Positions 21,749 through 40,883 of a DNA stretch of 64,000 bases are shown in pieces. The stretch is from a virus (taxonomy: Duplodnaviria; Heunggongvirae; Uroviricota; Caudoviricetes): positions 32,002 to 96,001 of the IMG/VR virus record IMGVR_UViG_3300043464_001836; one strand, 5' to 3'. How positions within the stretch are numbered: the stretch's first letter is position 1; the number at the start of each line of letters is the position of its first letter. The position numbers and the translations under genes were made by a program. Under the pieces are notes generated by a model. The model ran no database searches and was not told the origin of the DNA. It worked only from the letters and a program-made list of their open reading frames with translations.

Positions 21749-21756
21749 AAGTTTCC

Positions 21757-21830: not shown

Positions 21831-21836
21831 AGTATC

Positions 21837-22537: not shown

Positions 22538-22547
22538 TTTGTTTTCC

Positions 22548-22772: not shown

Positions 22773-22799
22773 TATAGTTCCTTAAATTAAAATACTAAG

Positions 22800-22873: not shown

Positions 22874-22892
22874 ACTTAGTACTCTATATTAT

Positions 22893-22967: not shown

Positions 22968-22974
22968 GTTTTAA

Positions 22975-23112: not shown

Positions 23113-23173
23113 GTCACTCTCCAGTTCAGAAAAGATATTTTACAAGGTTTGTACTATTTGTTCAACTGCAAAT

Positions 23174-23244
23174 TGGTGGAGCTAAGGGGTAACTAGCCCC
23201 TGCTGAGGTTATGAAACCTAACGCTAAGTTTAACCGCTAGCCCC
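23174..23244 (-). tRNA. tRNA with CAU in an apparently 8-nt anticodon loop (Met/Ile2-like) and an atypical T-loop CTAGTTA
   Basis: Seven-bp acceptor GGGGCTA/TAGCTCC, discriminator A, encoded CCA, T-stem AGGGG/CCCCT, anticodon region TTAGG-TTTCATAA-CCTCA. Confidence 0.4.
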
Positions 23245-23253
23245 GATGATTAA

Positions 23254-23351
23254 AATGGTTGACAGGTTTCGAACCTGCGTTTCACTGGTGATTCCCACCA
23301 TACTATTTCTAGTGTGGGCCCTTGCGTACTAAACCACTATACTACAACCAT
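23254..23351 (-). tRNA. tRNA-like, 98 nt, unresolved (possible insertion)
   Basis: Acceptor ATGGTTG/CAACCAT, D-arm GTAT...GTAC and T-arm GCAGG-TTCGAAA-CCTGT, but about 20 extra nt in the anticodon region. Confidence 0.3.
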
Positions 23352-23382
23352 ATCTAAGAGGTCTGAGGAAACTGCTTAGATA

Positions 23383-23459
23383 TGGCCCGCCGGGAGGAAG
23401 TCGAATCCCCATCTAAAGAGGTAGAAGCTCTTTGCTCTAGTCCGTTAAGCTACCGGCGG
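23383..23459 (-). tRNA. tRNA-Arg (UCU)
   Basis: Acceptor CCGCCGG/CCGGCGG, anticodon stem AAGAG/CTCTT, loop CTTCTAC, encoded CCA. Confidence 0.65.
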
Positions 23460-23464
23460 AATGT

Positions 23465-23540
23465 TGGTGGGCCCGGGAGGAATCAAACCTCACGTTCTTC
23501 GTCTTATGAGGACGCCGCTTCGTCATTAAGCTACAGGCCC
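23465..23540 (-). tRNA. tRNA-Met/Ile2-type (CAU)
   Basis: Acceptor GGGCCTG/CGGGCCC, D-stem GCTT/AAGC, anticodon loop CTCATAA, atypical T-loop TTTGATT, encoded CCA. Confidence 0.55.
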
Positions 23541-23551
23541 GATAGTACTTC

Positions 23552-24019
23552 TTAATAATGATCTACTGAGTAGTAATCCCTTACTATGATTTTTCTATCA
23601 ATAATGTCTTTTCTATGACCAATCTTGCTCCCGCAAGTTCTAGAGCAAGTTACAGTTTCTTTATGACTTACTTGGTTATACGCCCGTATAAATTCATTTG
23701 AGCATATAGGACACCGTAGTAAAACTAGTCTCTTACCTTTAGAGGATTCTTTGAGATACTTCAAATTGTTTTCTTTTTTAGAAAGAATTTGTAAATTCTC
23801 TATTCTATCATCTATTTTGATATTATTAATGTGGTCTACATGCTCATCAGGATGTAATTTTCTACCTAGATGAGTAGACATTAGATACCTGGCGTATGAA
23901 GTACTAGAGCGAGCACCAGTACTAGTGTTATAAAGTACTACGGTATTCCTACCTTGCGAAGAGACTAAGTATGCATTAGTGTACTCTTCGGTATAAGGGT
24001 GTTTTATTTCTATTTTCAT
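23552..24019 (-). CDS. HNH endonuclease (second family, HNH_3/AP2-like)
   Basis: HVDHINNIKIDDRIENLQIL HNH motif plus a C-terminal CPIC...C zinc cluster. Confidence 0.65.
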   Translation of the reverse strand: MKIEIKHPYTEEYTNAYLVSSQGRNTVVLYNTSTGARSSTSYARYLMSTHLGRKLHPDEHVDHINNIKIDDRIENLQILSKKENNLKYLKESSKGKRLVLLRCPICSNEFIRAYNQVSHKETVTCSRTCGSKIGHRKDIIDRKIIVRDYYSVDHY

Positions 24020-24050
24020 TTTATTCTATTCTATTCTATTGTTAATATGT

Positions 24051-24188
24051 TTACATCAAATCGTATTCTTCAGCAAACAAGTGGTAAATATCGTACCAAG
24101 TGTTTGCAGTCTCTGACATGGGAGCGGCAGCCAAGTATTTATACCAAGCATAAATCTTCATACTACGTAGGTTAGCTTTTACGTTCAT
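24051..24188 (-). CDS. 45-aa hypothetical protein, paralog B
   Basis: MNVKANLRSMKIYAWYKYLAAA... Paralog of 22975..23112. Confidence 0.4.
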   Translation of the reverse strand: MNVKANLRSMKIYAWYKYLAAAPMSETANTWYDIYHLFAEEYDLM

Positions 24189-24456
24189 GTCATTCTCCAG
24201 TTCAGAAAAGATATTTTACAGTGAATTGAGTTTTCAAACAACGTCAGATTCTTGTATGTGCTATATCAAGTCTTTGCACATCATAGCTATCCTAGTGAAG
24301 TTTTGTACTCCTTGTGCACTAAGGGTTTCATCTTTAAGACTAAATTCTGCCAGAGCGAGTGTATCTTGTAACGTTTTCAGGCTTTCTTGTAGATCACTCA
24401 TGTCTTTCTCCATTTCAGAAAAGATATTTTACAGTGAATTACGCGTTCAAACAACG

Positions 24457-24915
24457 TCAAATAAACCAGCTAGGAACCTCGGTCTTCCAAGTGCAGAAGT
24501 ATGCTTTGTCTTTCTTATAGTATTCCCTATAAGCAGTAACTACGTCTAGATGCTTATACTCATCTGGTACACATTTAGGTGGCTCGGTAAACTCTGTACT
24601 AGTAAACGTAGGCAGCTCTAGTTCGTTGCGTACTACTAGGTAGGACTTATGATCTCTACCAGAGTAACGTTTCTTATATTCTAGATTTAGCTGCTCTTGT
24701 AAGTCGACTAGATAGAAGAAGTTAGCTTCAGACTTTCTAGTCCATATAGCACACGGATGGTTAGCATGAGTAGGCTTATAAGGGCCAACTCCTAGTAGTT
24801 GATGGGTAGTGGTTGAAAGAAGCTGCGCGTACTCTAGAATCATCTTAACTACGTGCTTATCACAATGATAAGCAGCACAGCGCTTAATGTCTGTATCTAG
24901 GTAAAAGATATTCAC
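24457..24915 (-). CDS. hypothetical protein
   Basis: ORF. Confidence 0.45.
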   Translation of the reverse strand: MNIFYLDTDIKRCAAYHCDKHVVKMILEYAQLLSTTTHQLLGVGPYKPTHANHPCAIWTRKSEANFFYLVDLQEQLNLEYKKRYSGRDHKSYLVVRNELELPTFTSTEFTEPPKCVPDEYKHLDVVTAYREYYKKDKAYFCTWKTEVPSWFI

Positions 24916-25160
24916 TTTTTTCCAATCTTAGAGGATAACTCAGCCTTACTAGCACGCAGCTTATCTAGGAAGCCATAGTAACTACGAAGGTATAACTCTC
25001 TGACGTCAGCACTTTCTTCCTGCTTAAGTAACTCAATAGCGGCAAGTATCCTTTTCTCTTCTTCGCTATGTCTAGTAAGGTTGGCTTTCAGTCCTATTGG
25101 TTTTAGGTCACAGAAGTAGCTAGCCATTTTATTCACTCCACAAAAGTTCAAGCATGTCAT
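24912..25160 (-). CDS. hypothetical protein
   Basis: ORF. Confidence 0.4.
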   Translation of the reverse strand: MTCLNFCGVNKMASYFCDLKPIGLKANLTRHSEEEKRILAAIELLKQEESADVRELYLRSYYGFLDKLRASKAELSSKIGKK

Positions 25161-25335
25161 CAGCTATTTTATACATCTCAGGGTCCATACGTTCCATACC
25201 GGCTTCCAAAGAATCACTACAAAGGTAGTGGTCGGTATGACGATCCCAAGCACGCTCTAGCGTATTTCTAATAAACTCACGGAGGTTTGAAAATTCCCCT
25301 TCGGTCAAAATAAAGTCTTCACCTTGTTTACGCAT
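25129..25335 (-). CDS. hypothetical protein
   Basis: ORF. Confidence 0.4.
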   Translation of the reverse strand: MRKQGEDFILTEGEFSNLREFIRNTLERAWDRHTDHYLCSDSLEAGMERMDPEMYKIADDMLELLWSE

Positions 25336-25460
25336 TTCAGTCTTCCTTAATCAGTTAATAAAGATATTATACGCACTTGTATAAAACTAAACAACCTTAT
25401 AAATTTGGGGTCGAGGCGCAGAAAAAGGCTCCGAAGAGCCTTTACTGTTAAATCACTTTG

Positions 25461-26279
25461 CTACATAATTTCAAATTTATTACTCTTACTTAAGTTCTCC
25501 CTAGCTGGGAGATGTTGTAGATTAAATTCACAATGAAGTCCGCATACTAAGCTACTTTGTAGTGGAACTATATGGTCTACATGATACCCCTCTGGGCAGG
25601 TTTGATAAATTTCTTTTATAGCTATCAAATTTGCCCACTTTGGAGTCGCCTGTAACTTAGCAGCTCTACGTTTAGCGCTTTTTGCTGCAAATAAGTACTT
25701 ATTATTTTGGTAGTATAGCTTAATACTCTCTTTATTATGTAGTCTGTAGATGCGTTGTTTTTCTAATATGTCTTCTTTATTATTCTGATAGTGTACTTGC
25801 TTTTTCTTATGTAAAGAAGAAGCATTAAGTACATTATACTCTTTGAGGTACCTAGATATCTCATCCCTATTAGTTACTCTGTACTCTCTATCGCAGCTTT
25901 TACACTTACTTTGTCTGGAGCTTCTAGCATAATAGTTACTAAAGCGATCCAGGTCTAAAATAGAGTTACAGCAGGGGCACCTCTTTTTACCTACTAGGGA
26001 TAAAAAGTAGATGAACCACATTCTACCTTCCTTATCAGCAACAATATCAGGATACTTAGACCTTATAGACCTATTAAGATTAACTCCACAGGTGTACCCA
26101 CAGTACGTTGCTAATTGCTCCATACTACCTACTTTTATATCTAAAGCTTTTTCAATGAAGTGCACCCATAATATGTGTTTAGGTCTTTGTTTACTATATT
26201 TTGGGAGAAATACTTCACCAATATTAAACCTACTTACTAAGTAAGAATAAATTTTACTAACTAGAGTGTTATCTATCAT
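25461..26279 (-). CDS. HNH homing endonuclease (family 1 paralog)
   Basis: Shared C-terminal HNH module. Confidence 0.8.
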   Translation of the reverse strand: MIDNTLVSKIYSYLVSRFNIGEVFLPKYSKQRPKHILWVHFIEKALDIKVGSMEQLATYCGYTCGVNLNRSIRSKYPDIVADKEGRMWFIYFLSLVGKKRCPCCNSILDLDRFSNYYARSSRQSKCKSCDREYRVTNRDEISRYLKEYNVLNASSLHKKKQVHYQNNKEDILEKQRIYRLHNKESIKLYYQNNKYLFAAKSAKRRAAKLQATPKWANLIAIKEIYQTCPEGYHVDHIVPLQSSLVCGLHCEFNLQHLPARENLSKSNKFEIM

Positions 26280-26386
26280 ATTATGCCTCCTTCGGCATTC
26301 ACAAGAGGGTAACCTCTTGCTTATCTTTTAAGAAATATGAGAAAAGTTTCTAGTTAGAACTTTACTAGAAGTGCAACATATTTTAT

Positions 26387-26466
26387 TGGTGGAGCATATC
26401 AGGATCGAACTGATCTGTTCTTCCTCGGTGCAAGCGAGGTAGCCACGCCAAGCAGCCCCATGCCCC
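26387..26466 (-). tRNA. tRNA-Ala (UGC)
   Basis: Acceptor GGGGCAT/ATGCTCC with a G3:U70 pair, anticodon stem CCTCG/CGAGG, loop CTTGCAC, T-arm ATCAG-TTCGATC-CTGAT, encoded CCA. Confidence 0.55.
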
Positions 26467-26472
26467 AAATGT

Positions 26473-26682
26473 TTATTTATTCATAACTACAGCAGTACAC
26501 ATAGCAGCCGATTCGGTATACGCATAAGCACACTTAGCTTCGATAGCTGGTATACCTTGCACTACCATTTCCTTAATGGCTTCCGTTTCTGTAACGGAGT
26601 CGTAAGTGATAGCTAGAATTAAAGTAGCTAGTACCGCTGCTACTAGCGACCAGGTTACGACGTATAGCTTATTGTCGCTCAT
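26473..26682 (-). CDS. small membrane protein
   Basis: Hydrophobic N-terminus. Confidence 0.4.
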   Translation of the reverse strand: MSDNKLYVVTWSLVAAVLATLILAITYDSVTETEAIKEMVVQGIPAIEAKCAYAYTESAAMCTAVVMNK

Positions 26683-26918
26683 AATCCAGCAGCACCAAGA
26701 GCTAGAGCCATAGCACCGGCTGAGTTATTACGCCGACCGTTGTGCTTCATAACGACCTTGGTATTACCTTCCATCCGGTACAGGTCCGTAGCAGTACGGC
26801 TCTTGTAGAAGCAATCTTCTGCTTCTTTATAGTCGGAGCCAAAATACTGAGTAACTAGGCCACCAAAAGCAACAACGCCGAACAAACCTTTAGGTTGAAT
26901 CTTATTACGAAATTTCAT
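26679..26918 (-). CDS. hypothetical protein
   Basis: ORF. Confidence 0.4.
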   Translation of the reverse strand: MKFRNKIQPKGLFGVVAFGGLVTQYFGSDYKEAEDCFYKSRTATDLYRMEGNTKVVMKHNGRRNNSAGAMALALGAAGL

Positions 26919-26930
26919 TTTAATGCTCCA

Positions 26931-27524
26931 TTAAGTTGAGGGTACTACGATAAATCTGTTGTTCTTCTGTATATTATCAAACGGTGTTAAGTATTGCAAA
27001 TTAGCAAGAGTGTGTAACCCACAAACTAAATCATCTTGAAGGGGTACTATATGGTCTACGTGATACCCTTCAGGGCATGCGCTATAGAAGTCACTTATTG
27101 CGGGGAGGTCTGCCCAAGATGGACAACTATTTAACCTCTTAGCTTTATATTTAGCAGTTCTGGCTACTTGTTTATCTTTGTTCCTAGAATACTGGCACAT
27201 CCTACAGGAAATATTCAACCCGTCTGACTTCGATGCATTTTTTGAGAAGTTACTTAAACTATACACGGTATTACAATACCTACAGTATTTAAGCCCTTCT
27301 AATTTTAGAATATGGGTTAACCATCTTGTATTATTGATTTTACCTGGAAATATAGTATTAAGTAATTTAACTAGTACATTATATGTACTATTACTAAGGA
27401 ATGTTCGCAAGTTATAAGTATCGGAACTTAATAACTCTATAATAGTATCCGTAGGAACTACTTGGTCTAGTAGTATACGATGCCTATTTAAAATAAAGGT
27501 TAGTATTTCTTCTTTTGAGTACAT
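26931..27524 (-). CDS. HNH homing endonuclease (family 1, divergent paralog)
   Basis: YHVDHIVPLQDDLVCGLHTLANLQYL module. The conserved structured leader lies upstream. Confidence 0.7.
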   Translation of the reverse strand: MYSKEEILTFILNRHRILLDQVVPTDTIIELLSSDTYNLRTFLSNSTYNVLVKLLNTIFPGKINNTRWLTHILKLEGLKYCRYCNTVYSLSNFSKNASKSDGLNISCRMCQYSRNKDKQVARTAKYKAKRLNSCPSWADLPAISDFYSACPEGYHVDHIVPLQDDLVCGLHTLANLQYLTPFDNIQKNNRFIVVPST

Positions 27525-29420
27525 TTTTATTCCTTAACTGAATACTTAGGCTAGATAGTGAGTTAAGCACTATCAGGGGAGCTACCCTTTTCGCCTTAAT
27601 TGGATGCGGCCGAGCGTACCGCCCGCTCTCCCTTTTGGGATATGAGCCCAAAGTCTGACTATCAGAAGCCGCAATTAATTCTACTAAGTAAAGCCCCTTA
27701 TACTTACTAGCTACGGGATAGTGACCGTACTATTACGTTATAAGTGTTGCCGGTACGCCTATCAACCGGCAGTTGCGCAGATATTCCTAATGTGGTTAAT
27801 TACGCCTATAGGATTATCATAAGCTTTGCTTTACTTAGTAAAACTGGGTAATGAGATGAAGTTTGTAACAGACTCAGTATAAACCTAGGATAAGTTTAGG
27901 GTCCTAGAACTGACATTTATACTGTACTAGTACTTGGTCTACTAGCTGACTACAACATTGGATAACCGTTGAGGTTATCCATCTCTTTATCATATAGAAG
28001 TAGCTGTTACACACGCAGCACTACCCATACGGTCGTTACGGCTAGAATCTTGGGATATTTAGAATTATCAAGATTAGCCTAGAGTCGACCGTTTCATGGC
28101 ATTTCAGCCAATCGTCAGTAGGTTTGTTTGTCCGATTAATACTGGTTTCATATCGGGAGGTTGCTAGTACACCAGTCCTATACCTAGTCATTATAAGGGT
28201 GTGCGTCAGACTAGGAGTTGAGCACAACAATCTCTAAATTTCAGTCTAGCTTTGAGGTACTAGAACAGACGCGCGGTATTAATTCGCCTAGAGTACTCAC
28301 GCGTTACCTCTAGGTAGAGGATAGGTGCTAAGGATACCAACCCTTAGTCTTTCATAATGTTATTGCACAAAGTGGGTTTACACCTATTTAGAAGTACCTG
28401 CTATTAAGACTTCCTAGCTTCCTCTGCCTGCAAAGCATTTCCACTAGTAGTTTCTTAAAATACGCCATACATTCAGTGATCCCGTACCCTCACGCTTGCA
28501 GACATAAGGTGTCCCGTACCAGTATATAGTCTTTGGTCGTACTGCAAATACTTCTAAATAATACTCTTTTCGTGAGTAACTCGCACTTCGTAACCGAGAA
28601 GTGTAGCAGCCTAGGTATATGGATTCTTTCCCTAGAGTCACTAGATTAACATTTCTGCTAATTGCCACACAGCGGAGCCTACTAATAATTTCGGACGCTC
28701 TGTACTAGTGTCTTAAAAGCTAGGGTGGCTGCGCTTGGCATAAACCCAGAAGGGTTTGTTCCTTTTAACACTAACCAGGGTTAGTGCCCTAACTCAGAAA
28801 TAATATTATACGACCTTAATCAAAGAATTTCAAGTTCAAAATCAGGAAAGTCTGCTTCAGTTTCTTGAGGAATAAAGCCTCGTTCAATCATGTCAAAGTA
28901 AACTACATCGTGCATATCAGCCGGAACAGAGAATTCGCCGAAAGACATTTTGTTATTCCTTCATCAAGTTAGAAAAGATATTTTACAGCACTTAAGACTT
29001 TGAAGCAACATCAAATTTCTGAACCGTAACAACCAGGAAGTTGCATCCCTTCGTTTCAGTAGCCGTTTACTCCGTCTTGCTTAGGACAGTGATTACAATT
29101 CAGAATTGATATTTTACAGTGTTTAACTTACTAGAACAACATCAGAATTTAGCGGTTGGCCCAGAGTTCCGCTTCACGCAAAAGACCTGCATCAACCAGC
29201 TCCCAATATCGACGATCAAACATGTTGAACTCCTTAATTCATTTCAGAAAAGATATTTTACAGCGTTTGACTTATTAGAACAACGTCAAAATTCTCAAGT
29301 TAGATGCCTAGCATGAAAGAGTAATACCACGGGACCTTTGACAATGGCACAGGATATTAGAGCTTACTAGTGTCGCCTTTGTATGTCAACTCAGGCTTTG
29401 ACGGTCTCTAGGAGATTTGT

Positions 29421-29568
29421 CATCTAACTTTAGAATCCCAGTTATTCGATCTGGGAACGCTTACTCGCTCAGGCTTTCGCGTGGAGCAGTAATTCATCTA
29501 ACTTTAGAATCCCAGTTATTCGATCTGGGAACGCTTACTCGCTCAGGCTTTCGCGTGGAGCAGTAATT
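29421..29568. repeat. Perfect tandem duplication, 2 x 74 bp
   Basis: Unit CATCTAACTTTAGAATCCCAGTTATTCGATCTGGGAACGC... occurs twice head to tail. It is followed by the class-B promoter cassette. Confidence 0.8.
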
Positions 29569-29634
29569 CATTTCAGAAAAGATATTTTACAGCGTTTGAC
29601 TTGTTACAACAACGTCAAAATTCTAAACTAGGGA

Positions 29635-29707
29635 TGGAGCGGGTATGGGAGATCGAATCCCATCTACACGGCGTGGAAGGCCGGCGACTCTCCATGAGCT
29701 TACCCGC
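29635..29707 (-). tRNA. tRNA-Gly (UCC)
   Basis: Acceptor GCGGGTA/TACCCGC, anticodon loop CTTCCAC, T-arm TGGGA-TTCGATC-TCCCA, encoded CCA. Confidence 0.6.
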
Positions 29708-29748
29708 TTTGTTACTTTTGTAAAGGTAGTTTACAGCGTTTGATATGC

Positions 29749-30429
29749 TTAATCGACTTCAAATTTGTTACCCTTACTTAAGTTCTCACTAGCAGGTAAA
29801 TGTTGTAGGTTGAATTCGCAGTGTAAACCACATACTAGCTTACCTTGTAGGGGTACTATGTGATCTACATGGTACCCCGGAGGGCATGTTTGGTAAATTT
29901 CTTTTATAGTTACCAAGTTTGCCCACTTTGGGGTGGCTTTCAGTTTGGTAGCTCTGTATTTTGCTTTCTTTGCAAAATACATATATTTATGTATATAATA
30001 GTGATTTCTACTAGAAATATTTAGTATGGTTTTGTTTATTTTGTAATAAATCTTATGTCTACTAGAGTCGCACTCTTTACATATAGTATGCACTTTATAG
30101 TTTACATCTCGTATATTACGAGAGTAATAGCTCAAAGGCTTAACTTCTACGCATTTTGTGCAGACTCTATAACCAACAGTGTATAATAACCAAGCTCTAT
30201 AACTTTTTATAATTTTTGGCTTACTAAGGAAGATTTTATCCCTGAAACCTTTGAATCCACCATCACCTAACCTAGAGTACCCTAATTCTTTTGCTAAGTT
30301 GGAGTTGTCTTCATTTATAAGAGCTTCTATTAGACGTGCTTTATCTATGTTCTTTGTATTTCTAGGTATCGGTACACCTAATTTATCTATAGCTACGCTT
30401 AGTAGCTCTCTTACTGTATCTTCATTCAT
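29749..30429 (-). CDS. HNH homing endonuclease (family 1 paralog)
   Basis: Shared HNH module. The conserved leader lies upstream. Confidence 0.8.
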   Translation of the reverse strand: MNEDTVRELLSVAIDKLGVPIPRNTKNIDKARLIEALINEDNSNLAKELGYSRLGDGGFKGFRDKIFLSKPKIIKSYRAWLLYTVGYRVCTKCVEVKPLSYYSRNIRDVNYKVHTICKECDSSRHKIYYKINKTILNISSRNHYYIHKYMYFAKKAKYRATKLKATPKWANLVTIKEIYQTCPPGYHVDHIVPLQGKLVCGLHCEFNLQHLPASENLSKGNKFEVD

Positions 30430-30541
30430 ATTACACCCCCTCCAGGGCTAAAGCATAGGCTAGATTATGGAGGTAATCAGAGGAGCAACCCTTTTTCGCC
30501 TATAATTGTAGAAAGCTGCTATACCAGCAACTTTCTGAATG

Positions 30542-30617
30542 CTCCGTATTAGAGAATCGAACTCTACTATCCAGTGGTTAACAGCCACGCCCATGCGCCT
30601 TGCTCGGGTTCTACGGA
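30542..30617 (-). tRNA. tRNA-Asn (GUU)
   Basis: Acceptor TCCGTAG/ATACGGA (6/7 pairs), anticodon stem GTGG/CCAC, loop CTGTTAA, T-arm TAGAG-TTCGATT-CTCTA. Confidence 0.55.
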
Positions 30618-30626
30618 ATTGATCTT

Positions 30627-31052
30627 TTAATCTACCTTAGGTTCAACAAACTGAAACTCACGTCCAGGCTTCGTAATTAGGGCTAGCTTATTACGAATCT
30701 TATCTTCTAGAATAGGGTCAGCGAAACCAAAGTCATCTTGAATGCTCATATCAACGATGGGCTTATCCAAGTCAAAGTCTGCTAGCAAACCTTCAACTAC
30801 GTCGGCTACTAACACGTCAGCACAGAGAATTAAGTCTGCCCACTCTAGATGCACTTGGTCGATAGGGATTAGTGCAAAGTCAGCAGTAGAGCCAACTGCA
30901 CGAGGATTTACATTATCAAAGTCACGGGTGAGCACTCGTGCCATCGTAGGGCTGCGAAGCAAGCCCGCAGAACAGACGCAAAGAACTCGTACAGAGTCAC
31001 CTTGAAACCGATTGTGACAATTTCCTAGACGATTACGGGTTACGTTAGACAT
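30627..31052 (-). CDS. Low-molecular-weight protein-tyrosine-phosphatase/ArsC-like protein
   Basis: N-terminal P-loop VLCVCSAGLLRS (C-x5-R-S), with conserved Asp residues downstream. Confidence 0.45.
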   Translation of the reverse strand: MSNVTRNRLGNCHNRFQGDSVRVLCVCSAGLLRSPTMARVLTRDFDNVNPRAVGSTADFALIPIDQVHLEWADLILCADVLVADVVEGLLADFDLDKPIVDMSIQDDFGFADPILEDKIRNKLALITKPGREFQFVEPKVD

Positions 31053-31071
31053 TTTGTTTCCTTAAAGTATT

Positions 31072-31146
31072 TGGAGCCGTATGAGAATTCTGAGATCTCG
31101 ACCTGCTGCTTACAAGGCAGCTGCTCTGCCACTGAGCTAATACGGC
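31072..31146 (-). tRNA. tRNA-Thr (UGU)
   Basis: Acceptor GCCGTAT/ATACGGC, canonical D-arm GCTC-AGTGGCA-GAGC, anticodon stem GCTGC/GCAGC, loop CTTGTAA, atypical T-loop CTCAGAA, encoded CCA. Confidence 0.6.
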
Positions 31147-33104: not shown

Positions 33105-33740
33105 CTATTTATCATCGTTCCACATTAAGAATAGAGCGTTACAAATTACGTGCGCTAGGTGCGATTTCTGCGATTCGGGGTCTTCTTTCTCCCCAGACAC
33201 ATATGATACAATGTGTCTAAGAATAGCCTTCTCATAGCGGTCACGTTCTACTTTCTGCCAATTATCTCTAGAGTACTTAGTAGCTCCGAACTCTAGTACT
33301 TCTACTACTGGTTCTAGCTGCTTCCAAGGAATTAAAGTCCAATCTAGCTTACCGGAGTCGTGCTTTACTCCTTTTTTCACACTAGCCAACTTAGTTAAAA
33401 CCGTATCATCTAGCACAGGTAACGTATTGTCTATAGTAGGTAAGCTACTAATATCGTCTGGCAATTCATAATTTGCTTTTGGAGTATTAGTGACTGCTTG
33501 TACACTAGATGGAATCCTGCCTGTAATAATTCCTGGGTAGGGGTTTGTAATAGTTAAAGGTGAAATTTTAGTAGTAAACGAAGATTTTGCTACTGTTGAC
33601 TCTACTAATTCCTTAAAGTTACTGCCATTAGTACAGGTAGAACATACTGTACTAGCACTAGTAAACAAGTAACAATACTCGCAACCACGATTTTTAGGCT
33701 GCTGCATACAAGCTCCTTTCATCAAAATGAATATTCTCAA
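33105..33740 (-). CDS. hypothetical protein with an N-terminal Cys cluster and a C-terminal nucleotide-pyrophosphohydrolase-like (MazG/DUF550-like) segment
   Basis: CEYCY...CSTC zinc-ribbon-like N-terminus. C-terminal LEFGATKYSRDNWQK...SHLAHVICNALFLMW resembles phage NTP-PPase domains (weak). Confidence 0.35.
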   Translation of the reverse strand: MRIFILMKGACMQQPKNRGCEYCYLFTSASTVCSTCTNGSNFKELVESTVAKSSFTTKISPLTITNPYPGIITGRIPSSVQAVTNTPKANYELPDDISSLPTIDNTLPVLDDTVLTKLASVKKGVKHDSGKLDWTLIPWKQLEPVVEVLEFGATKYSRDNWQKVERDRYEKAILRHIVSYVSGEKEDPESQKSHLAHVICNALFLMWNDDK

Positions 33741-34443
33741 AACCGTAACCCCTAGGATTACAAATAAACTTAGTTCCTAGGTACTCTTCACAGTAGCTAT
33801 CATGAGTATGACCAAATAGCCAAATTTTAGGTACCCTGTAGATTACATCTAGTAGCTCTGCTGCATTAGAACTAAACATGCAGTTCTCCACTATATGCTT
33901 ATACTTAGGGTGGGTAAACTTACGACTAGGAACAAAGTGAGTTACTAGGATATCAAAGTCATTACTAGAAATCCAATCCATTGTATCTCTATATTCTTGC
34001 ATCCAGGAGTCAGTAGTCATACATTTAATATAACGTATGTCGTTTGTATAATCCTTTCCTAGAATAACTGAAACAGGGTTACCTTCATCCATGCTAGACC
34101 ATAGAGTAGCTCCCCCAATTCTTACACCTTCAATGTCTACCCACTCTTTCTCAAGAATATATACATTCTCGTTTACTAGCATGTCTAGACTTTCAGACGC
34201 TACACGCCAATCATGGAAACCCCAATAGTCATGGTTTCCTAGAACAGCTACTACATGCTTGAATCGCTTGGACATTTCATTTAGCCAGTCGGCAGTATTA
34301 ATAATACTACGGCCTGTCCAAATATCCCCAGCAACGATTAGAGTAGTTTCGGAGTCTTCATCTAGACGCTTTGGGGTCCATAATGGTTTTCGATTAGCAT
34401 AGTCAAAGTCTAGATGTAAATCACTAAATATACGATATTTCAT
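33694..34443 (-). CDS. Metallophosphoesterase (calcineurin-like)
   Basis: Motifs DLHLD, GDIW and GNHD. Confidence 0.7.
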   Translation of the reverse strand: MKYRIFSDLHLDFDYANRKPLWTPKRLDEDSETTLIVAGDIWTGRSIINTADWLNEMSKRFKHVVAVLGNHDYWGFHDWRVASESLDMLVNENVYILEKEWVDIEGVRIGGATLWSSMDEGNPVSVILGKDYTNDIRYIKCMTTDSWMQEYRDTMDWISSNDFDILVTHFVPSRKFTHPKYKHIVENCMFSSNAAELLDVIYRVPKIWLFGHTHDSYCEEYLGTKFICNPRGYGFENIHFDERSLYAAA

Positions 34444-34873
34444 ATTTTTCCTTAACAGGGTGAAAGGTATCTACAAGCAGCTTGCCAGCCACTCACAAAT
34501 ACTTTATATTGTAAGTCCCAAAACTCTTGATATTTCATAAATTTGGGGTCTACAGGTCTGGGCCCATATATCTTCTCAAAAGCTGAAAGAGCAGGGCTTA
34601 CCAAATTTGATTCGTTCATATAACCTCACTAGAATAATTTGTGGGTACAACAGGGTTAGCACTACATAAGCAAATACCTTATATAGCGTAGGATTGTATA
34701 GATAATTCATAGGTTTTCTCCATATTGAAATGATATTATACGCGTGCGTACCGTGTACTTCAAGCCTGAATTTATGTGGTTAGGCGCAGGGAGTAGCGAG
34801 AAGAGACATAAAATTTTACACTTACTTTTACACTAAAAACGCACTATAATATCCTTTCTGAAATTACTTAAAG

Positions 34874-35020
34874 GCCAAACAAATGAAAAACTGGCAGCTT
34901 TTCGCTATTATTACTACTATCTATAACGCGGCTTTTCAGGTAGCTGCAGAAATAAACCCTCTTGTTATCTTTAGCCTTGCTACAGTATTCGCTATTTTTA
35001 CTTTCTATACTGCACATAAA
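34874..35020 (+). CDS. small membrane peptide (48 aa)
   Basis: MKNWQLFAIITTIYNAAFQVAAEINPLVIFSLATVFAIF... between two copies of a TATAAT-containing promoter repeat. Confidence 0.3.
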
Positions 35021-35099
35021 GACGTGTAAAATTTTACACTTGTTTTTACACTAAAAACGCACTATAATATCTTTCTTAACTCAATAAAGGACTAAACGA

Positions 35100-36068
35100 A
35101 TGGCATTTATCAAATTCCCCAAAATCGGGCAGTTCCGCGATGTTATTACCCACGTGCGCAAGCAGGCCCAGTTCGTTGGCATTGACGCCGAAGGTAATGT
35201 TATCGTAGACCGTACTCGCAAGGCTCCCACTCTCAAATTCAAAGGTACTGTGAAATTGCATGGTACCAACGCTGCTGTTGTGCGTAATGCTGATGGCACT
35301 ATCCACTTCCAATCTCGTGAACGTATTATCACTCCTACTAGTGATAACGCCGGTTTTGCTATTTGGGCTTCTACTGTTGACTGGAACTTCTTCTTCTTCT
35401 CACTATTCAATCCTGATAGCGAGGTAGCTATCTTCGGTGAATGGTGTGGTGGCAATATCCAGCAAGGTATTGCTCTTAACCAGCTAACCAAGCGCTTTGT
35501 TATCTTCAAAGTTATGGTTGATGGTGTTTGGCAGAAGTTCACCCTAGATGTTGCTCAAGACTTTGGCATCTACAACATCAACAGCTTCCCTAGCTTTGAA
35601 GCTGAGATCGACTTCGAAAATCCGGGTGTTGTTCAAAATATCCTTATTGCTATTACTGAGCAGGTTGAGGCTGAATGTCCTGTAGGTAAAGCTTTCGGTG
35701 TTACTGGTATTGGTGAAGGTGTTGTATGGACTTGCGAGAGTGATCCTACTCTAGTCTTTAAGGTTAAGGGTGAAAAGCACTCTGCATCCAAGGTTAAGGT
35801 CTTGGCTAGTGTAGACACCGAGAAGGCTGCTTCTTTGCAGGAATTCGTTGAAAACTCTGTAACTGAAAACCGCCTCAACCAGGGCCTAGAAAATATTGAT
35901 GAACTAGACGTTAAGTGCACTGGTCAGTTCTTGAAGTGGGTAGTTAATGACGTTCTAGTTGAGGAAGCAGATGTTATCGTTGCTTCTCTGCTAGAAACCA
36001 AAGAAGTTAATCGTGAAGTATCTAAAGCTGCTAAAGTCTGGTTCATGGAGAAACTGAAAAATGCATGA
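35100..36068 (+). CDS. RNA ligase, Rnl2-like nucleotidyltransferase
   Basis: Motif I KLHGTNA (compare T4 Rnl2 KIHGTN), motif III IFGEWCGG, motif IV GEGVVW, motif V LVFKVKGEKH. Confidence 0.6.
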   Translation: MAFIKFPKIGQFRDVITHVRKQAQFVGIDAEGNVIVDRTRKAPTLKFKGTVKLHGTNAAVVRNADGTIHFQSRERIITPTSDNAGFAIWASTVDWNFFFFSLFNPDSEVAIFGEWCGGNIQQGIALNQLTKRFVIFKVMVDGVWQKFTLDVAQDFGIYNINSFPSFEAEIDFENPGVVQNILIAITEQVEAECPVGKAFGVTGIGEGVVWTCESDPTLVFKVKGEKHSASKVKVLASVDTEKAASLQEFVENSVTENRLNQGLENIDELDVKCTGQFLKWVVNDVLVEEADVIVASLLETKEVNREVSKAAKVWFMEKLKNA

Positions 36069-40568: not shown

Positions 40569-40883
40569 ATGACGTACAAATTGTTTATTGATGATGAGCG
40601 GTACCCACCTAATGATGGGGGTACTTGGGTTATCAGTCGTACCTCTCAAGAGGCTATTGCTGCTGTACTTTCTCTAGGTATGCCAGCCTTTATCTCCTTT
40701 GACCATGACTTGGGTGGTGAGGATACGTCTATGGTTTTCGTTAATTGGCTTATTGACTATATGCTTGATAATCACAAAGACCAGTTTGACTTCTACGTCC
40801 ACTCTCAAAATCCTGTTGGAAAGGTTAATATTGAGAAGAGACTGCTAGGTCTCTTTACTTACTTGGAGCAATGTAATGATTAA
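40569..40883 (+). CDS. hypothetical small protein with a receiver(REC)-like signature (FIDDER...DHDLGG)
   Basis: KLFIDDERYP ... ISFDHDLGG pattern reminiscent of CheY-like/phage REC-like domains. ATGA overlaps on both sides. Confidence 0.35.
   Translation: MTYKLFIDDERYPPNDGGTWVISRTSQEAIAAVLSLGMPAFISFDHDLGGEDTSMVFVNWLIDYMLDNHKDQFDFYVHSQNPVGKVNIEKRLLGLFTYLEQCND

What the first reader, a model, noticed from the sequence alone, without database searches (positions are those of the whole stretch)
35100..36068. Rnl2-like RNA ligase at the head of the plus-strand module, near the tRNA island
KLHGTNA (motif I), IFGEWCGG, GEGVVW and FKVKGEK match the Rnl2/DNA-ligase nucleotidyltransferase motifs. Combined with the Pnk kinase and the Rnl1-like ligase further downstream, the phage carries two distinct RNA ligases plus end-healing functions. 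That is consistent with repair of tRNAs cut by host anticodon nucleases (PrrC, RloC, Colicin-like nucleases) or with maturation of its own unusual tRNAs.
Basis: partly seen in the sequence, partly recalled or inferred. Interest (0 to 1): 0.6.

Follow-up and report, generated by a model that had tools for sequence, protein, structure and literature searches.

The report
Phage Rnl2-type RNA ligase gene
The gene at 35100-36068 is an intact, ordinary member of the well-known phage "RNA ligase 2" family, carried by a new T5-like phage together with a second RNA ligase, a small kinase and several phosphoesterases that could together mend broken RNAs such as tRNAs; what it repairs in the cell is unknown, as it still is for T4 RNA ligase 2.

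Summary
The ORF 35100..36068 (+, 322 aa) exists, and all four quoted motifs are present.

- **Family assignment.** It passes Pfam RNA_ligase PF09414 and matches PHROG 548 over its full length; T4 Rnl2 belongs to that same PHROG. A 60-sequence profile finds T4 Rnl2 as the best solved structure and finds no DNA ligase or capping enzyme. A confident AlphaFold model is closest to T4 Rnl2 and TbREL1. DNA ligases, T4 Rnl1 and capping enzymes score clearly lower.
- **Catalytic residues.** K52, H54, R73, E114, F136, E206, K221 and K223 are invariant in 60 homologues, as are R258 and D284 in the C-terminal domain.
- **Companion genes.** A kinase-only Pnk-like protein, an Rnl1-family ligase without the T4 C-domain, cREC and two metallophosphoesterases are present. 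Similar gene sets are already annotated in Vibrio phage Athena and described for phage V5-like genomes.
- **DNA ligase.** The phage encodes its own split NAD+-dependent DNA ligase.

Verdict: a new member of a known kind, of low to moderate interest. The RNA-repair or counter-defence role is an inference.

The parts
35100..36068 (+). Rnl2-family ATP-dependent RNA ligase gene (322 aa). The nucleotidyltransferase domain spans about aa 1-228, a low-confidence linker aa 229-232, and a helical C-terminal domain about aa 240-321.
   Evidence: ORF. Pfam PF09414 at 43.8 bits. PHROG 548 at 1.1e-59, full length. AF2 model with pLDDT 92.3. Fold searches.
35253..35273 (+). Motif I, KLHGTNA. K52 is the predicted AMP-accepting lysine. 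H54 is the Rnl2/Rnl5 signature His.
   Evidence: K, H, G, T and N are invariant in 60 homologues. The KxHG signature is described in PMC1807946.
35313..35327 (+). Motif Ia region, SRERI. R73 corresponds to T4 R55.
   Evidence: invariant. The role of R55 is described in PMC3149579.
35430..35453 (+). Motif III, IFGEWCGG. E114 corresponds to T4 E99. Q121, just downstream, corresponds to Q106.
35496..35513 (+). Motif IIIa, FVIFKV. F136 corresponds to T4 F119. The position of T4 D120 is K137 here and is variable in the clade (G/K/A).
35712..35729 (+). Motif IV, GEGVVW. E206 corresponds to T4 E204.
35757..35777 (+). Motif V, FKVKGEK. K221 and K223 correspond to T4 K225 and K227.
   Evidence: HMMER and hhalign alignments. 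MAFFT mis-gapped this stretch. Residue roles are described in PMC3149579.
35817..36065 (+). C-terminal all-alpha domain. It contains TENRLNQ (R258 aligns with T4 R266) and VNDVLVEE (D284 aligns with T4 D292).
35027..35074 (+). Promoter-like 48-nt element, copy 2. It contains TTTACA...TATAAT and ends 26 nt before the ligase ATG. An AAAGGA ribosome-binding site lies at about 35088-35093.
   Evidence: The exact 26-mer occurs twice in the window against 0 expected.
34809..34856 (+). Promoter-like 48-nt element, copy 1 (94% identical to copy 2), upstream of the 48-aa ORF.
34883..35029 (+). 48-aa hydrophobic ORF, the first gene of the plus-strand block.
   Evidence: It is called as a gene in five independent metagenome contigs.
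33694..34443 (-). Calcineurin-like metallophosphoesterase (249 aa), divergently oriented next to the ligase. It is a candidate 3'-end-healing enzyme.
   Evidence: Pfam PF00149 and PHROG 1649. The adjacency is conserved in L008, where the Rnl2 is 59% identical.
33105..33740 (-). Protein carrying the N-terminal domain of dATP/dGTP diphosphohydrolase (PF18909), annotated in PHROGs as dATP/dGTP pyrophosphohydrolase. It possibly corresponds to the 'MazG pyrophosphatase' of the V5-type neighbourhood.
   Evidence: PF18909 at 4.5e-30, PHROG 801. The neighbourhood is described in PMC9503650, section 3.7.3.
40569..40883 (+). cREC protein (cyclic-phosphate-processing receiver domain), a predicted 2',3'-cyclic phosphodiesterase.
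   Evidence: PF20274 at 77.5 bits against a cut-off of 27. The functional prediction comes from PMC9503650.
50289..50675 (+). 128-aa P-loop kinase, a candidate polynucleotide 5'-kinase. It has the kinase domain only.
   Evidence: AAA_33 at 1.1e-13, PHROG 2071 at 6e-32 and PHROG 505 'polynucleotide kinase' at 5e-10. Against the T4 Pnkp kinase domain, E 2e-6. Its phage distribution matches that of the Rnl1-like ligase, and the two are adjacent in other phages.
51637..52416 (+). Rnl1-family RNA ligase (259 aa). It has a complete adenylyltransferase domain with K75 as the motif I lysine, but no counterpart of T4 Rnl1 residues 255-374.
   Evidence: PF09511 at 37.4 bits against a cut-off of 28.3, and PHROG 562 at 1.3e-46. 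Alignment to T4 Rnl1.
12374..12946 (-). Second phosphoesterase (190 aa). It is the orthologue of Vibrio phage Athena gp173, which lies one gene (gp172) downstream of the kinase gp171 in the Rnl1-like/kinase cluster. Here it flanks the far end of the tRNA island.
   Evidence: PHROG 547 at 2.5e-55. 38% identity, E 2e-37, to Athena gp173. Athena gene map.
13568..31146 (-). tRNA island on the minus strand: 14 ARAGORN tRNAs, Rfam-only tRNA-Glu and tRNA-Thr, one 98-nt tRNA-like element and a permuted tmRNA. These are possible substrates or context.

Best explanation
The gene encodes an intact ATP-dependent RNA ligase of the Rnl2 (T4 gp24.1) family in a previously unsequenced T5-like (Demerecviridae-type) phage.

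**Predicted chemistry** (inferred from conservation of every residue with a described catalytic role). K52 attacks ATP to form ligase-AMP. AMP is then transferred to a 5'-phosphate at a nick. The RNA 3'-OH attacks the adenylylated end to seal the strand. R73, E114, F136, E206, K221 and K223 form the AMP and phosphate pocket, and the helical C-terminal domain helps engage the nicked duplex.

**Expression** (inferred). The gene probably has its own copy of a duplicated promoter-like element at the strand-switch point. It opens a block of auxiliary and counter-defence genes: SprT-like, PhoH, cREC, PRPP-synthetase-like, macro-like, NAMPT-like, ThyX, kinase and Rnl1-like ligase.

**Most likely biological role** (inferred, not shown). 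It acts as the nick-sealing arm of a dispersed RNA 'healing and sealing' toolkit.
1. cREC and/or the two metallophosphoesterases open or remove 2',3'-cyclic or 3'-phosphate ends.
2. The 128-aa kinase phosphorylates 5'-OH ends.
3. The C-domain-less Rnl1-like ligase joins breaks in loops.
4. Rnl2 joins breaks held in base-paired regions of tRNAs or other structured RNAs cut by host ribotoxins.
For: **Family**
- PF09414 above its cut-off.
- Full-length match to PHROG 548, the PHROG that contains T4 Rnl2 itself at 463 bits.
- Profile against PDB: T4 Rnl2 at 9.7e-9, in one stretch covering both domains. hhalign E 1.9e-6.
- AF2 model with pLDDT 92.3.

**Active site**
- K52, H54, T56, N57, R73, E114, Q121, F136, E206, K221, K223, R258 and D284 are invariant in 60 homologues of 48-74% identity.
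- The roles of the T4 equivalents are described in PMC3149579 and PMC1807946.

**Not the phage DNA ligase**
- A split NAD+-dependent DNA ligase is encoded at 7018..8812.

**Toolkit**
- Kinase, Rnl1-like ligase, metallophosphoesterase, cREC and a second phosphoesterase are all present.
- The kinase and the Rnl1-like ligase have near-identical phage distributions and are adjacent in Athena, phiPsa374 and phage EM.
- Athena carries the whole set, including Rnl2, within 10 kb.
- The Metallophos|Rnl2 ... cREC ... NAMPT synteny is conserved in a relative whose Rnl2 is 59% identical.
- A published description exists of a phage neighbourhood of T4-like tRNA ligase, cREC, kinase, MazG and calcineurin-like phosphoesterase, read as RNA-end clean-up for ligation (PMC9503650, section 3.7.3).
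Against: - No biochemical or genetic data exist for this protein or its clade.
- The in vivo role of even T4 Rnl2 is unknown (PMC3884662), and T4 Rnl2 repairs anticodon-loop-nicked tRNA less well than Rnl1 (PMC9942843).
- Rnl2 lies 15-16 kb from the kinase and the Rnl1-like ligase here.
- Its phage distribution only partly overlaps theirs. For example, Caulobacter, Rhizobium and Mycobacterium hits appear only in the Rnl2 search.
- Three T4 positions differ: R33 to T50, E34 to V51, and D120 to K137, which is variable in the clade. R33 is reported as essential (PMC1807946). I recall D120 as essential from memory. I make no claim for E34.
- The kinase lacks T4 Pnk R38 and R126 in the pairwise alignment.
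- No sirtuin, Tpt1 or 2H partner was found in the window.
- The promoter scan as a whole was not above the shuffled expectation.
Confidence: 0.8

Rival explanations
1. The enzyme works on DNA-associated substrates rather than in RNA repair. It would seal nicks whose 3'-OH strand ends in ribonucleotides, for example RNA-primed or ribo-terminated nicks arising during replication or repair of a T5-like genome.
For: T4 Rnl2 seals RNA:DNA hybrids in which only the 3'-OH strand is RNA (PMC3884662). The phage is T5-like by TerL. From my own knowledge, T5-type genomes carry single-strand nicks. A SprT-like protein and PhoH lie just downstream.
Against: The phage has a dedicated split NAD+-dependent DNA ligase inside its replication module (primase, DnaB, ligase at 2.8-8.8 kb, minus strand). 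The Rnl2 gene sits instead in the auxiliary block with cREC, the NAD module, the kinase and the Rnl1-like ligase. Rnl2 homologues occur in many phage groups that are not T5-like.
Confidence: 0.1
2. The ligase matures the phage's own structured RNAs. Candidates are an interrupted tRNA-like transcript or the permuted tmRNA.
For: The island contains a 98-nt tRNA-like element whose anticodon arm is replaced by a roughly 42-nt GAAA-capped arm. It also contains a permuted tmRNA gene. Phosphoesterases and Rnl2 flank the island.
Against: ARAGORN with introns allowed does not call the 98-nt element as a spliced tRNA, and no anticodon loop can be reconstructed by removing a simple insert. Its fold is not better than that of shuffled sequences, z -1.17. 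From my own knowledge, two-piece tmRNAs are made by cleavage and need no ligation. All other tRNAs are uninterrupted. The Rnl2 family occurs in many phages with unrelated RNA gene content.
Confidence: 0.07
3. The protein is not an RNA ligase. It would be an ATP-dependent DNA ligase or a capping-type nucleotidyltransferase that merely shares the superfamily motifs.
Against: - Motif I is KxHG, not KxDG (PMC1807946).
- The C-terminal domain is all-helical, with no OB fold.
- No DNA ligase or capping enzyme is found by sequence profile up to E 10.
- No DNA-ligase Pfam family matches at E<=1.
- Rnl2-family structures outrank DNA ligases in both fold searches.
Confidence: 0.02
4. The gene is a decaying or functionally repurposed relic. 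Examples would be a protein kept only for a structural or moonlighting role, as T4 Rnl1 has in tail-fibre attachment.
For: Some T4-essential positions differ. No function has been proven for the clade.
Against: The ORF is uninterrupted. All residues with described catalytic roles are invariant across 60 homologues down to 48% identity. The model is confident. Gene position is conserved in a diverged relative.
Confidence: 0.03

Closest known systems
Bacteriophage T4 RNA ligase 2 (gp24.1/RnlB; PDB 2HVQ/2HVR/1S68; Pfam PF09414 + PF18043; PHROG 548)
   Same: - Both belong to PHROG 548.
- Size and layout are similar: 322 against 334 aa, with an N-terminal nucleotidyltransferase domain plus a C-terminal helical domain.
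- Motif I is KxHGxN.
- Equivalents of K35, H37, T39, N40, R55, E99, Q106, F119, E204, K225, K227, R266 and D292 are conserved.
- T4 Rnl2 is the best sequence-profile and Foldseek match.
- T4 also carries Rnl1 and a Pnk alongside Rnl2.
   Different: - Foldseek structural alignments to T4 Rnl2 show only about 15-18% identity. The single-sequence PDB hit is E 0.055.
- The region before motif I is 14 residues longer.
- T4 R33, E34, K54, D120 and K209 are T50, V51, S72, K137 and T211 here.
- The host phage is T5-like, not T4-like.
'RNA ligase 2' genes annotated in large phages: Rhizobium phage RHph_I1_18, Caulobacter phage Cr30, Ralstonia RSP15, the PVP-SE1/KB57 group, and Vibrio Thalassavirus (Athena gp181)
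   Same: They are full-length homologues at 38-48.5% identity. Athena is also Demerecviridae. Within about 10 kb it carries an Rnl1-like ligase, the small kinase, phosphoesterases and the PRPPs-like/macro-like/NAMPT-like trio together with Rnl2. Its gp173 and gp176 are homologous to window proteins.
   Different: - No nucleotide-level relative exists, and the best protein identity is below 50%.
- Here the set is dispersed: the phosphoesterase at 12.4 kb, Metallophos|Rnl2 at 34-36 kb, cREC at 40.6 kb, and the kinase and Rnl1-like ligase at 50-52 kb.
- The 249-aa metallophosphoesterase next to Rnl2 is not the Athena gp168 or gp173 type.
Phage V5-type RNA-end clean-up neighbourhood (Iyer, Burroughs, Anantharaman and Aravind 2022, PMC9503650, section 3.7.3)
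   Same: A T4-like tRNA ligase (Rnl1-like), cREC, a nucleotide kinase, a pyrophosphohydrolase possibly equivalent to its MazG component, and a calcineurin-like phosphoesterase are all present.
   Different: The defining sirtuin was not found in this 64-kb window. The genes are not contiguous. That description does not include an Rnl2-type ligase.
Clostridium thermocellum Pnkp (kinase, metallophosphoesterase and ligase in one polypeptide) and T4 Pnkp + Rnl1 tRNA repair
   Same: The three activities needed to heal and seal 2',3'-cyclic-PO4/5'-OH breaks are the same. CthPnkp shows that a calcineurin-type phosphoesterase can do the 3' healing (PMC2190708). The kinase and the Rnl1-like ligase also hit PHROG 8238, a 737-aa fused kinase...ligase family.
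   Different: Here the activities are on separate small proteins. The HAD phosphatase of T4 Pnkp is absent. The Rnl1-like ligase lacks the T4 C-terminal domain. No Hen1 partner was seen.
Rnl5 ligases (Deinococcus DraRnl, Naegleria NgrRnl)
   Same: Both have the KxHG motif I. Thr lies two residues before the lysine (T50, as DraRnl T163; PMC1807946). NgrRnl is the second-best sequence and fold match.
   Different: Rnl5 enzymes have an N-terminal OB-like module and no C-terminal domain (PMC1807946). This protein has a roughly 85-residue helical C-terminal domain and only a short N-terminal extension.

Membership tests
Rnl2 family (T4 gp24.1 type) | Motif I is KxHGxN: a lysine nucleophile with His, not Asp, two residues downstream. 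| tested here: met
   K52-L-H54-G-T-N57. All are invariant in 60 homologues. The signature is described in PMC1807946.
Rnl2 family (T4 gp24.1 type) | Counterparts of the catalytic residues R55 (Ia), E99 (III), F119 (IIIa), E204 (IV), and K225 and K227 (V). | tested here: met
   R73, E114, F136, E206, K221 and K223, all invariant. Residue roles are described in PMC3149579.
Rnl2 family (T4 gp24.1 type) | A curated family model (Pfam PF09414 RNA_ligase) matches above its gathering score. | tested here: met
   43.8 bits against a cut-off of 27, covering residues 49-222 and model positions 5-170 of 171. All 60 of 60 homologues match.
Rnl2 family (T4 gp24.1 type) | The nucleotidyltransferase fold is closer to Rnl2-family structures than to DNA ligases, Rnl1 or capping enzymes. 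| tested here: met
Rnl2 family (T4 gp24.1 type) | An all-alpha domain is appended C-terminally to the nucleotidyltransferase domain, rather than an OB fold or nothing. | tested here: met
   The AF2 models show five helices over residues about 240-321, with pLDDT above 90 in both the full-length and the isolated-domain models.
Rnl2 family (T4 gp24.1 type) | That C-terminal domain is homologous to the T4 Rnl2 C domain (PF18043). | tested here: inconclusive
   For:
- PF18043 is the top and only recurrent Pfam family for the isolated domain. It gives E 7.2e-4 at 20.3 bits against a cut-off of 27, and hits 8 of 24 homologues with a best E of 6.8e-6.
- R258 and D284 are invariant and align with T4 R266 and D292.
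- The PHROG 548 profile, which contains T4 Rnl2, is matched through position 339 of 341.

Against:
- hhalign probability is 25%.
- The isolated-domain profile finds no Rnl2 in PDB.
Rnl2 family (T4 gp24.1 type) | T4-specific positions R33 and D120. R33 is reported as essential in PMC1807946. I recall D120 as essential in T4 Rnl2 from memory. | tested here: not met
   R33 is T50, which is Thr in 59 of 60 homologues. D120 is K137, and that column holds G, K, A or D. These are not superfamily-defining positions. They mark this as a distinct sub-clade.
Rnl2 family (T4 gp24.1 type) | ATP-dependent sealing of 3'-OH/5'-PO4 nicks in duplex RNA. | not testable with these tools
   This needs a biochemical assay.
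Rnl5 (DraRnl/NgrRnl) | An N-terminal OB-like module and no domain C-terminal to motif V. | tested here: not met
   Only 48 residues precede motif I, and a helical C-terminal domain of about 85 residues is present. NgrRnl matches only over the nucleotidyltransferase core.
ATP-dependent DNA ligase / mRNA capping enzyme | Motif I is KxDG, and a C-terminal OB domain carries motif VI. | tested here: not met
   His occupies the Asp position. The C domain is helical. No such protein is found by sequence profile up to E 10, and no such Pfam family at E<=1.
Rnl1 family (T4 gp63) | A PF09511 match and a KxDG-type motif I. | tested here: not met
T4-type tRNA healing-and-sealing system (Pnkp + Rnl1 against an anticodon nuclease) | A bifunctional Pnkp with a 5'-kinase domain and a HAD 3'-phosphatase domain. 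| tested here: not met
   Only a 128-aa kinase domain is present, aligning to T4 Pnkp residues 4-145. K17, S18 and D37 are kept, and R38 and R126 are not aligned to Arg. 3' healing would have to come from cREC or the metallophosphoesterases.
T4-type tRNA healing-and-sealing system (Pnkp + Rnl1 against an anticodon nuclease) | An Rnl1 with its C-terminal domain (T4 residues 255-374). | tested here: not met
   The window protein is 259 aa and aligns only to T4 Rnl1 residues 49-255 and PHROG 562 positions 29-264 of 377.
T4-type tRNA healing-and-sealing system (Pnkp + Rnl1 against an anticodon nuclease) | A cognate host tRNA nuclease whose damage is reversed. | not testable with these tools
   The host is unknown. 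The sequence comes from metagenomes.
V5-type sirtuin-centred RNA-end clean-up neighbourhood (PMC9503650) | A distinct sirtuin linked to a T4-like tRNA ligase, cREC, kinase, MazG and a calcineurin-like phosphoesterase. | tested here: inconclusive
   All partners except the sirtuin are present. No SIR2 hit was found among the ORFs of 190 aa or more that were scanned. The window covers about 64 kb of a contig of about 114 kb.

The most novel reading that the evidence does not exclude
The two ligases divide the labour of RNA repair in a way not yet shown for any phage. The C-domain-less Rnl1-like enzyme would reseal loop breaks. This Rnl2 would reseal breaks in base-paired regions, such as anticodon-stem or acceptor-stem cuts by Toprim-type or other tRNases, or cuts in the phage's own tmRNA or its 98-nt tRNA-like RNA. 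End healing would be supplied by a non-T4 set of enzymes: the kinase-only protein, cREC and the metallophosphoesterases. If true, this would give Rnl2 its long-missing biological function.
Probability: 0.15. Interest if true: 0.6.

Novelty: new member of a known kind. Interest (0 to 1): 0.25.

Why it matters
The gene itself is routine. Thousands of homologues exist, and phage annotators already label them "RNA ligase 2".

Its modest value has three parts.
1. It documents a diverged Rnl2 sub-clade with Thr instead of Arg before the lysine, no Asp at the T4 D120 position, and a C-domain only remotely like T4's. This clade could be mined as a reagent enzyme.
2. It shows a T5-like phage that assembles a complete RNA healing-and-sealing toolkit from parts unlike T4's, next to a large tRNA/tmRNA island and a probable NAD+-reconstitution module. 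That is a genome arrangement suited to asking what Rnl2 does in vivo, a question still open for T4.
3. It adds to the picture of translation-apparatus protection as a phage counter-defence theme.

Tried and rejected
- **Nucleotide search.** Megablast of 34000-38000 against 50,697 phage records found no match, so no close annotated genome could be used.
- **Partner proteins against PDB.** Single-sequence searches were uninformative: nothing for the Rnl1-like protein, T4 Pnk at only E 0.09 for the kinase, and lariat-debranching enzyme at E 0.27 for the metallophosphoesterase.
- **Metallophosphoesterase.** I tested whether the 249-aa protein next to Rnl2 is the same as Athena gp168 or gp173. It is not. 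The 190-aa phosphoesterase at 12374..12946 is the gp173 orthologue.
- **Missing partners.** I looked for a sirtuin, Tpt1/KptA, 2H or HAD phosphatase among all larger ORFs and found none.
- **The 98-nt tRNA-like element.** ARAGORN with introns allowed does not call it. Its fold is not above shuffled sequences. A Y-RNA (YrlA) reading has no Rfam support at that site. The only YrlA hit is a sub-threshold overlap with the tmRNA.
- **TROVE protein in L008.** Rfam found only tRNAs in L008.
- **Promoter scan.** The sigma-70 consensus scan of 34400-36500 found 8 sites against 5.5 +/- 2.1 expected, which is not significant. The promoter suggestion rests on the exact duplication instead.
- **Alignment artefact.** MAFFT with T4 Rnl2 added mis-gapped motif V. 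I used the HMMER and hhalign alignments for K221 and K223.
Full report

Yes. A 322-codon ORF runs from the ATG at 35100 to the stop ending at 36068 on the plus strand.
- KLHGTNA at residues 52-58
- IFGEWCGG at residues 111-118
- GEGVVW at residues 205-210
- FKVKGEK at residues 220-226

This is not a chance resemblance.
- The protein passes the curated threshold of Pfam RNA_ligase PF09414: 43.8 bits against 27, E 4e-11, covering model positions 5-170 of 171.
- It matches PHROG 548 'RNA ligase' end to end: E 1.1e-59, residues 1-319 against profile positions 1-339 of 341.
- A search of the large protein collection returned 4,596 homologues at E<=1e-5. One is an identical protein seen on six contigs, the longest 114 kb.

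**2. Which ligase family?**

I tested this in three independent ways.

(a) Sequence profile.
- A profile of 60 homologues (48-74% identical to the query) was searched against all PDB sequences.
- It finds T4 RNA ligase 2 first, at E 9.7e-9, in one aligned stretch running from motif I into the C-terminal domain.
- The isolated T4 Rnl2 adenylyltransferase domain follows, then the Naegleria Rnl5 ligase at E about 0.04.
- No DNA ligase or capping enzyme appears up to E 10.
- hhalign of the same profile against T4 Rnl2, fetched from NC_000866, gives E 1.9e-6 over 235 columns.

(b) Fold.
- An AlphaFold2 model built from that alignment is confident, with pLDDT 92.3 and pTM 0.79.
- Foldseek against the PDB ranks the three T4 Rnl2 entries first, at 2e-12 to 8e-11 with full-length alignments. 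DNA ligase IV chains appear from about 1e-5, over the shared core only.

(c) Family libraries.
- T4 Rnl2 is itself a member of PHROG 548, at 463 bits.
- Phage annotators call the homologues 'RNA ligase 2' in 211 GenBank phage records. The best is Rhizobium phage RHph_I1_18 at 48.5% identity.

The refutation criterion is therefore not met, and the Rnl2 assignment stands.

**3. Residue-level anatomy**

I used the HMMER and hhalign alignments and a MAFFT check. T4 residues map to window residues as follows:

| T4 Rnl2 | Window protein |
|---|---|
| K35 | K52 |
| H37 | H54 |
| T39 | T56 |
| N40 | N57 |
| R55 | R73 |
| E99 | E114 |
| Q106 | Q121 |
| F119 | F136 |
| E204 | E206 |
| K225 | K221 |
| K227 | K223 |
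| R266 (C-domain) | R258 |
| D292 (C-domain) | D284 |

All of these columns are invariant across the 60 homologues.

Published work supports the roles of the T4 residues.
- K35 is the adenylylated lysine. F119 stacks near the adenine. E99 and R55 contact the ribose. K225 and K227 contact the phosphate (PMC3149579).
- A His two residues after the lysine is the Rnl2/DraRnl signature. DNA ligases, Rnl1 and capping enzymes have Asp there (PMC1807946).

Differences from T4 define a sub-clade.
- T4 R33, reported essential (PMC1807946), is Thr here, as in DraRnl.
- E34 is Val and K54 is Ser.
- The position of D120 is Lys here and is G, K or A elsewhere in the clade.
- K209 is Thr.

**4. The C-terminal domain: an honest gap**

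Rnl1 and Rnl2 are told apart by their C-terminal helical domains, while Rnl5 has none (PMC1807946). The model shows a five-helix domain at residues about 240-321, so the architecture is Rnl2-like and not Rnl5-like.

Homology of that domain to T4's is only weakly supported.
- PF18043 (T4_Rnl2_C) is the top and only recurrent Pfam hit for the isolated domain, but it is below threshold: 20.3 bits against 27, with 8 of 24 homologues hitting and a best E of 6.8e-6.
- hhalign restricted to the two C-domains aligns 40 columns, including the R and D motifs, at E 7.8e-4 but with a probability of only 25%.
- The isolated profile finds nothing relevant in the PDB.

I score this feature as inconclusive.

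**5. Genomic setting**

The large terminase is about 50% identical to those of T5-like Vibrio and Yersinia phages, and there is no nucleotide-level relative. This is a new, distant Demerecviridae-type phage.

Strand organisation:
- Minus-strand genes occupy the window up to about 34710. They include the replication genes: primase, a DnaB-type helicase and a split NAD+-dependent DNA ligase at 7018..8812.
- The minus strand also holds the tRNA island.
- The plus-strand block starts with a 48-aa hydrophobic ORF (34883..35029), followed by the ligase.

A 48-nt element containing TTTACA...TATAAT occurs exactly twice, at 34809-34856 and 35027-35074. The copies are 94% identical, and the exact 26-mer is expected 0 times. 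One copy lies ahead of each of these two genes. This is a plausible duplicated promoter. A generic promoter scan of the region was not above background.

Because the phage has its own DNA ligase in its replication module, the 322-aa protein is not standing in for one.

**6. The companions**

- **Kinase, 50289..50675.**
  - A 128-aa AAA_33 P-loop kinase with PHROG 2071 at 6e-32 and PHROG 505 'polynucleotide kinase' at 5e-10.
  - It aligns to the kinase domain of T4 Pnkp only (residues 4-145, E 2e-6).
  - It keeps the P-loop Lys/Ser and the Asp that aligns with D35. It has no HAD phosphatase domain and no Arg aligned with R38 or R126.
- **Rnl1-like ligase, 51637..52416.**
  - An Rnl1-family ligase: PF09511 at 37.4 bits against 28.3, and PHROG 562 at 1.3e-46.
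  - It has a complete adenylyltransferase domain, with K75 aligned to T4 K99.
  - It has no counterpart of T4 Rnl1 residues 255-374.
  - The two ligases in the window are unrelated by BLAST.
- **Candidate 3'-end-healing enzymes.**
  - A calcineurin-like metallophosphoesterase lies divergently adjacent to Rnl2, at 33694..34443.
  - A second phosphoesterase lies at 12374..12946, flanking the other end of the tRNA island. It is orthologous to Athena gp173 at 38% identity, E 2e-37.
  - A cREC 'cyclic-phosphate processing receiver' protein lies at 40569..40883: PF20274 at 77.5 bits.

**7. Is the set conserved?**

- The kinase and the Rnl1-like ligase have almost the same distribution among 50,697 phage records: 618 against 723 records, with matching genus counts. 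They are neighbours in Vibrio phage Athena, Pseudomonas phages phiPsa374 and EM, and others.
- Athena, also Demerecviridae, carries the following within about 10 kb: a NinI-like phosphatase, the Rnl1-like ligase, the kinase, the gp173 phosphoesterase, a PRPP-synthetase-like gene, a 'phosphatase', a NAMPT-like gene and Rnl2.
- In a metagenomic relative whose Rnl2 is 59% identical, this order is preserved: DUF1289 - dGTP_diPhyd_N - Metallophos (minus strand) | Rnl2 (plus strand) ... SprT-like ... PhoH ... cREC ... PRPPs-like ... NAMPT-like ... ThyX.
- Rnl2 itself is present in only a subset of the phages with the kinase/Rnl1-like pair. It also occurs without them, for example in Caulobacter and Rhizobium phages. 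It is a looser associate.
- Iyer et al. [quoted passage not shown] It is linked to a sirtuin and interpreted as clean-up of 2',3'-cyclic phosphate RNA ends for ligation (PMC9503650, section 3.7.3). I found no sirtuin in this window.

**8. How it most likely works**

Shown by sequence and structure prediction: an intact Rnl2-type adenylyltransferase with a helical C-terminal domain.

Inferred from family knowledge:
- The three-step ligase pathway through K52-AMP.
- A preference for 3'-OH/5'-PO4 nicks in duplex RNA, or in RNA:DNA hybrids with an RNA 3'-OH strand (PMC3884662, PMC1807946).

Inferred from context: it is the nick-sealing arm of a distributed healing-and-sealing toolkit that protects tRNAs or other structured RNAs from host ribotoxins.
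- 5' healing would come from the small kinase.
- 3' healing would come from cREC and/or the metallophosphoesterases. CthPnkp and lambda phosphatase show that such enzymes can open 2',3'-cyclic phosphates (PMC2190708).
- Loop sealing would come from the Rnl1-like ligase.

This last step is the weakest. The biological role of T4 Rnl2 remains unknown (PMC3884662), and Rnl2 is less efficient than Rnl1 on loop-nicked tRNA (PMC9942843).

My confidence by level:
- About 0.95 for family.
- About 0.85 for ligase chemistry.
- About 0.5 for an RNA-repair or counter-defence role.

**9. Rivals**

- A role at ribo-terminated DNA nicks is possible biochemically, but the dedicated DNA ligase and the gene's location argue against it.
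- A role in maturing the phage's own RNAs has no positive evidence.
  - The one odd element is a 98-nt tRNA-like sequence at 23254..23351 with a long GAAA-capped arm in place of the anticodon arm.
  - ARAGORN does not read it as an intron-containing tRNA, and it does not fold better than shuffled sequences.
  - To my knowledge, permuted tmRNAs are made by cleavage, not ligation.
- Misassignment as a DNA ligase or capping enzyme is effectively excluded (section 2).
- Decay is unlikely given the invariant catalytic residues.

**10. Novelty and score**

This is a new, fairly diverged member of a well-known and routinely annotated family. It sits in a gene set already seen in annotated phages and already discussed in the literature. 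A specialist would not be surprised. The interesting open question, what Rnl2 does in vivo, is not answered by this locus, although the locus is a reasonable place to ask it.

- Interest: 0.25.
- Novelty: new member of a known kind.

Noticed in passing
window 17602-17879 (-): Rfam finds a permuted (two-piece) tmRNA gene: RF04321 at 74 bits against a gathering score of 47, covering the full model. The tag reading frame ends ...ANDEVFAIAA-stop. The gene also hits the betaproteobacterial tmRNA model RF01850 at 63.6 bits, below its cut-off of 84. ARAGORN did not report it. A phage-borne permuted tmRNA may hint at the host lineage.
   Followed up: partly
window 23254-23351 (-): A 98-nt tRNA-like element (Rfam tRNA, 40 bits). 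Its acceptor, D and T arms are good, but the anticodon arm is replaced by a roughly 42-nt extended arm capped by GAAA (CCCAC-ACUA-GAAA-UAGU-AUG-GUGGG). It has no recognisable anticodon loop. ARAGORN does not call it, even with introns allowed. Its function is unknown.
   Followed up: partly
window 31075-31146 (-) and 18076-18148 (-): Two further tRNAs are seen by Rfam but not by ARAGORN. One is tRNA-Thr(UGU) with an unusual T loop (CUCAGAA). The other is tRNA-Glu(UUC). They extend the tRNA island to about 4 kb from the ligase. Conversely, ARAGORN's Tyr (18518-18608, 91 nt) and Ala (26387-26466, 80 nt) did not reach the Rfam threshold.
   Followed up: partly
window 34809-34856 and 35027-35074 (+): A 48-nt promoter-like element is duplicated 218 nt apart at 94% identity. 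It contains two TTTTACAC repeats and a perfect TATAAT. One copy lies before the 48-aa ORF and one before the ligase. The exact 26-mer occurs nowhere else in the window.
   Followed up: partly
window 7018-7782 (-) and 7835-8812 (-): The NAD+-dependent DNA ligase is split into two adjacent genes. One carries the adenylation and OB domains, the other HhH and BRCT. They sit next to the primase (2796-3668) and a DnaB-type helicase (3670-5091). A heterodimeric phage LigA of this kind has a solved structure (PDB 9hu3, seen).
   Followed up: no
window 40569-43753 (+): A contiguous block holds cREC, a PRPP-synthetase-like gene (40876-41676), a macro-like 'phosphatase' (41673-42236, PHROG 335) and a NAMPT-like gene (42272-43753). 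The same trio is found in Vibrio phage Athena gp175-177. The block looks like the phage NAD+ reconstitution pathway NARP1 (Adps + Namat; bioRxiv 10.1101/2024.02.11.579819, PMC12774641). I did not test whether these are Adps/Namat rather than true PRPP synthetase/NAMPT.
   Followed up: partly
window 38682-39422, 46353-47102, 48304-49023, 61525-62244 (+); 11614-12393, 19592-20275, 25461-26279, 26931-27524, 29749-30429 (-): There are two expanded families of homing-endonuclease-like genes. Four HNH paralogues on the plus strand share 70-81% identical DNA segments. Five endonuclease VII/HNH-like paralogues (PHROG 1035 and 26577) are scattered through the tRNA island.
   Followed up: partly
window 43808-43972, 55865-56125, 58695-58854: Three long short-period tandem arrays are present. 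A 7-nt unit (TTTGAAG) repeats about 20 times in an intergenic region. A 9-nt unit (AAACGTCAA) repeats about 25 times inside ORF 55831-56223, giving a TSK tripeptide repeat. A 10-nt unit (GGCCTGTGGT/GGCCTGGGGT) repeats about 14 times just after gene 57997-58701.
   Followed up: no
window 43935-44019, 49946-50030, 50922-51006; and 38200-38241, 46184-46225, 59952-59993, 63533-63574: Two further families of repeated promoter-like upstream elements were found. One reads GTTTGGGGT...TATAAT...GGAGAAC-ATG. The other reads TTGATTTT...TATAAT. The first family precedes the small genes immediately upstream of the kinase and between the kinase and the Rnl1-like ligase.
   Followed up: no
L008 2866-4344 (-): A related phage contig, whose Rnl2 is 59% identical, encodes a 492-aa TROVE-domain (Ro60/Rsr-type) protein upstream of the conserved Metallophos|Rnl2 junction and next to gene-free gaps. 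An Rfam scan at gathering threshold found only tRNAs there and no Y RNA. The window itself has no TROVE gene.
   Followed up: partly
window 51562-51621 (+): Two tandem 30-nt direct repeats (TTAACCAATTTCACAACTAGAAGTTTACGG and a copy with 83% identity) lie immediately upstream of the Rnl1-like ligase start codon at 51637.
   Followed up: no
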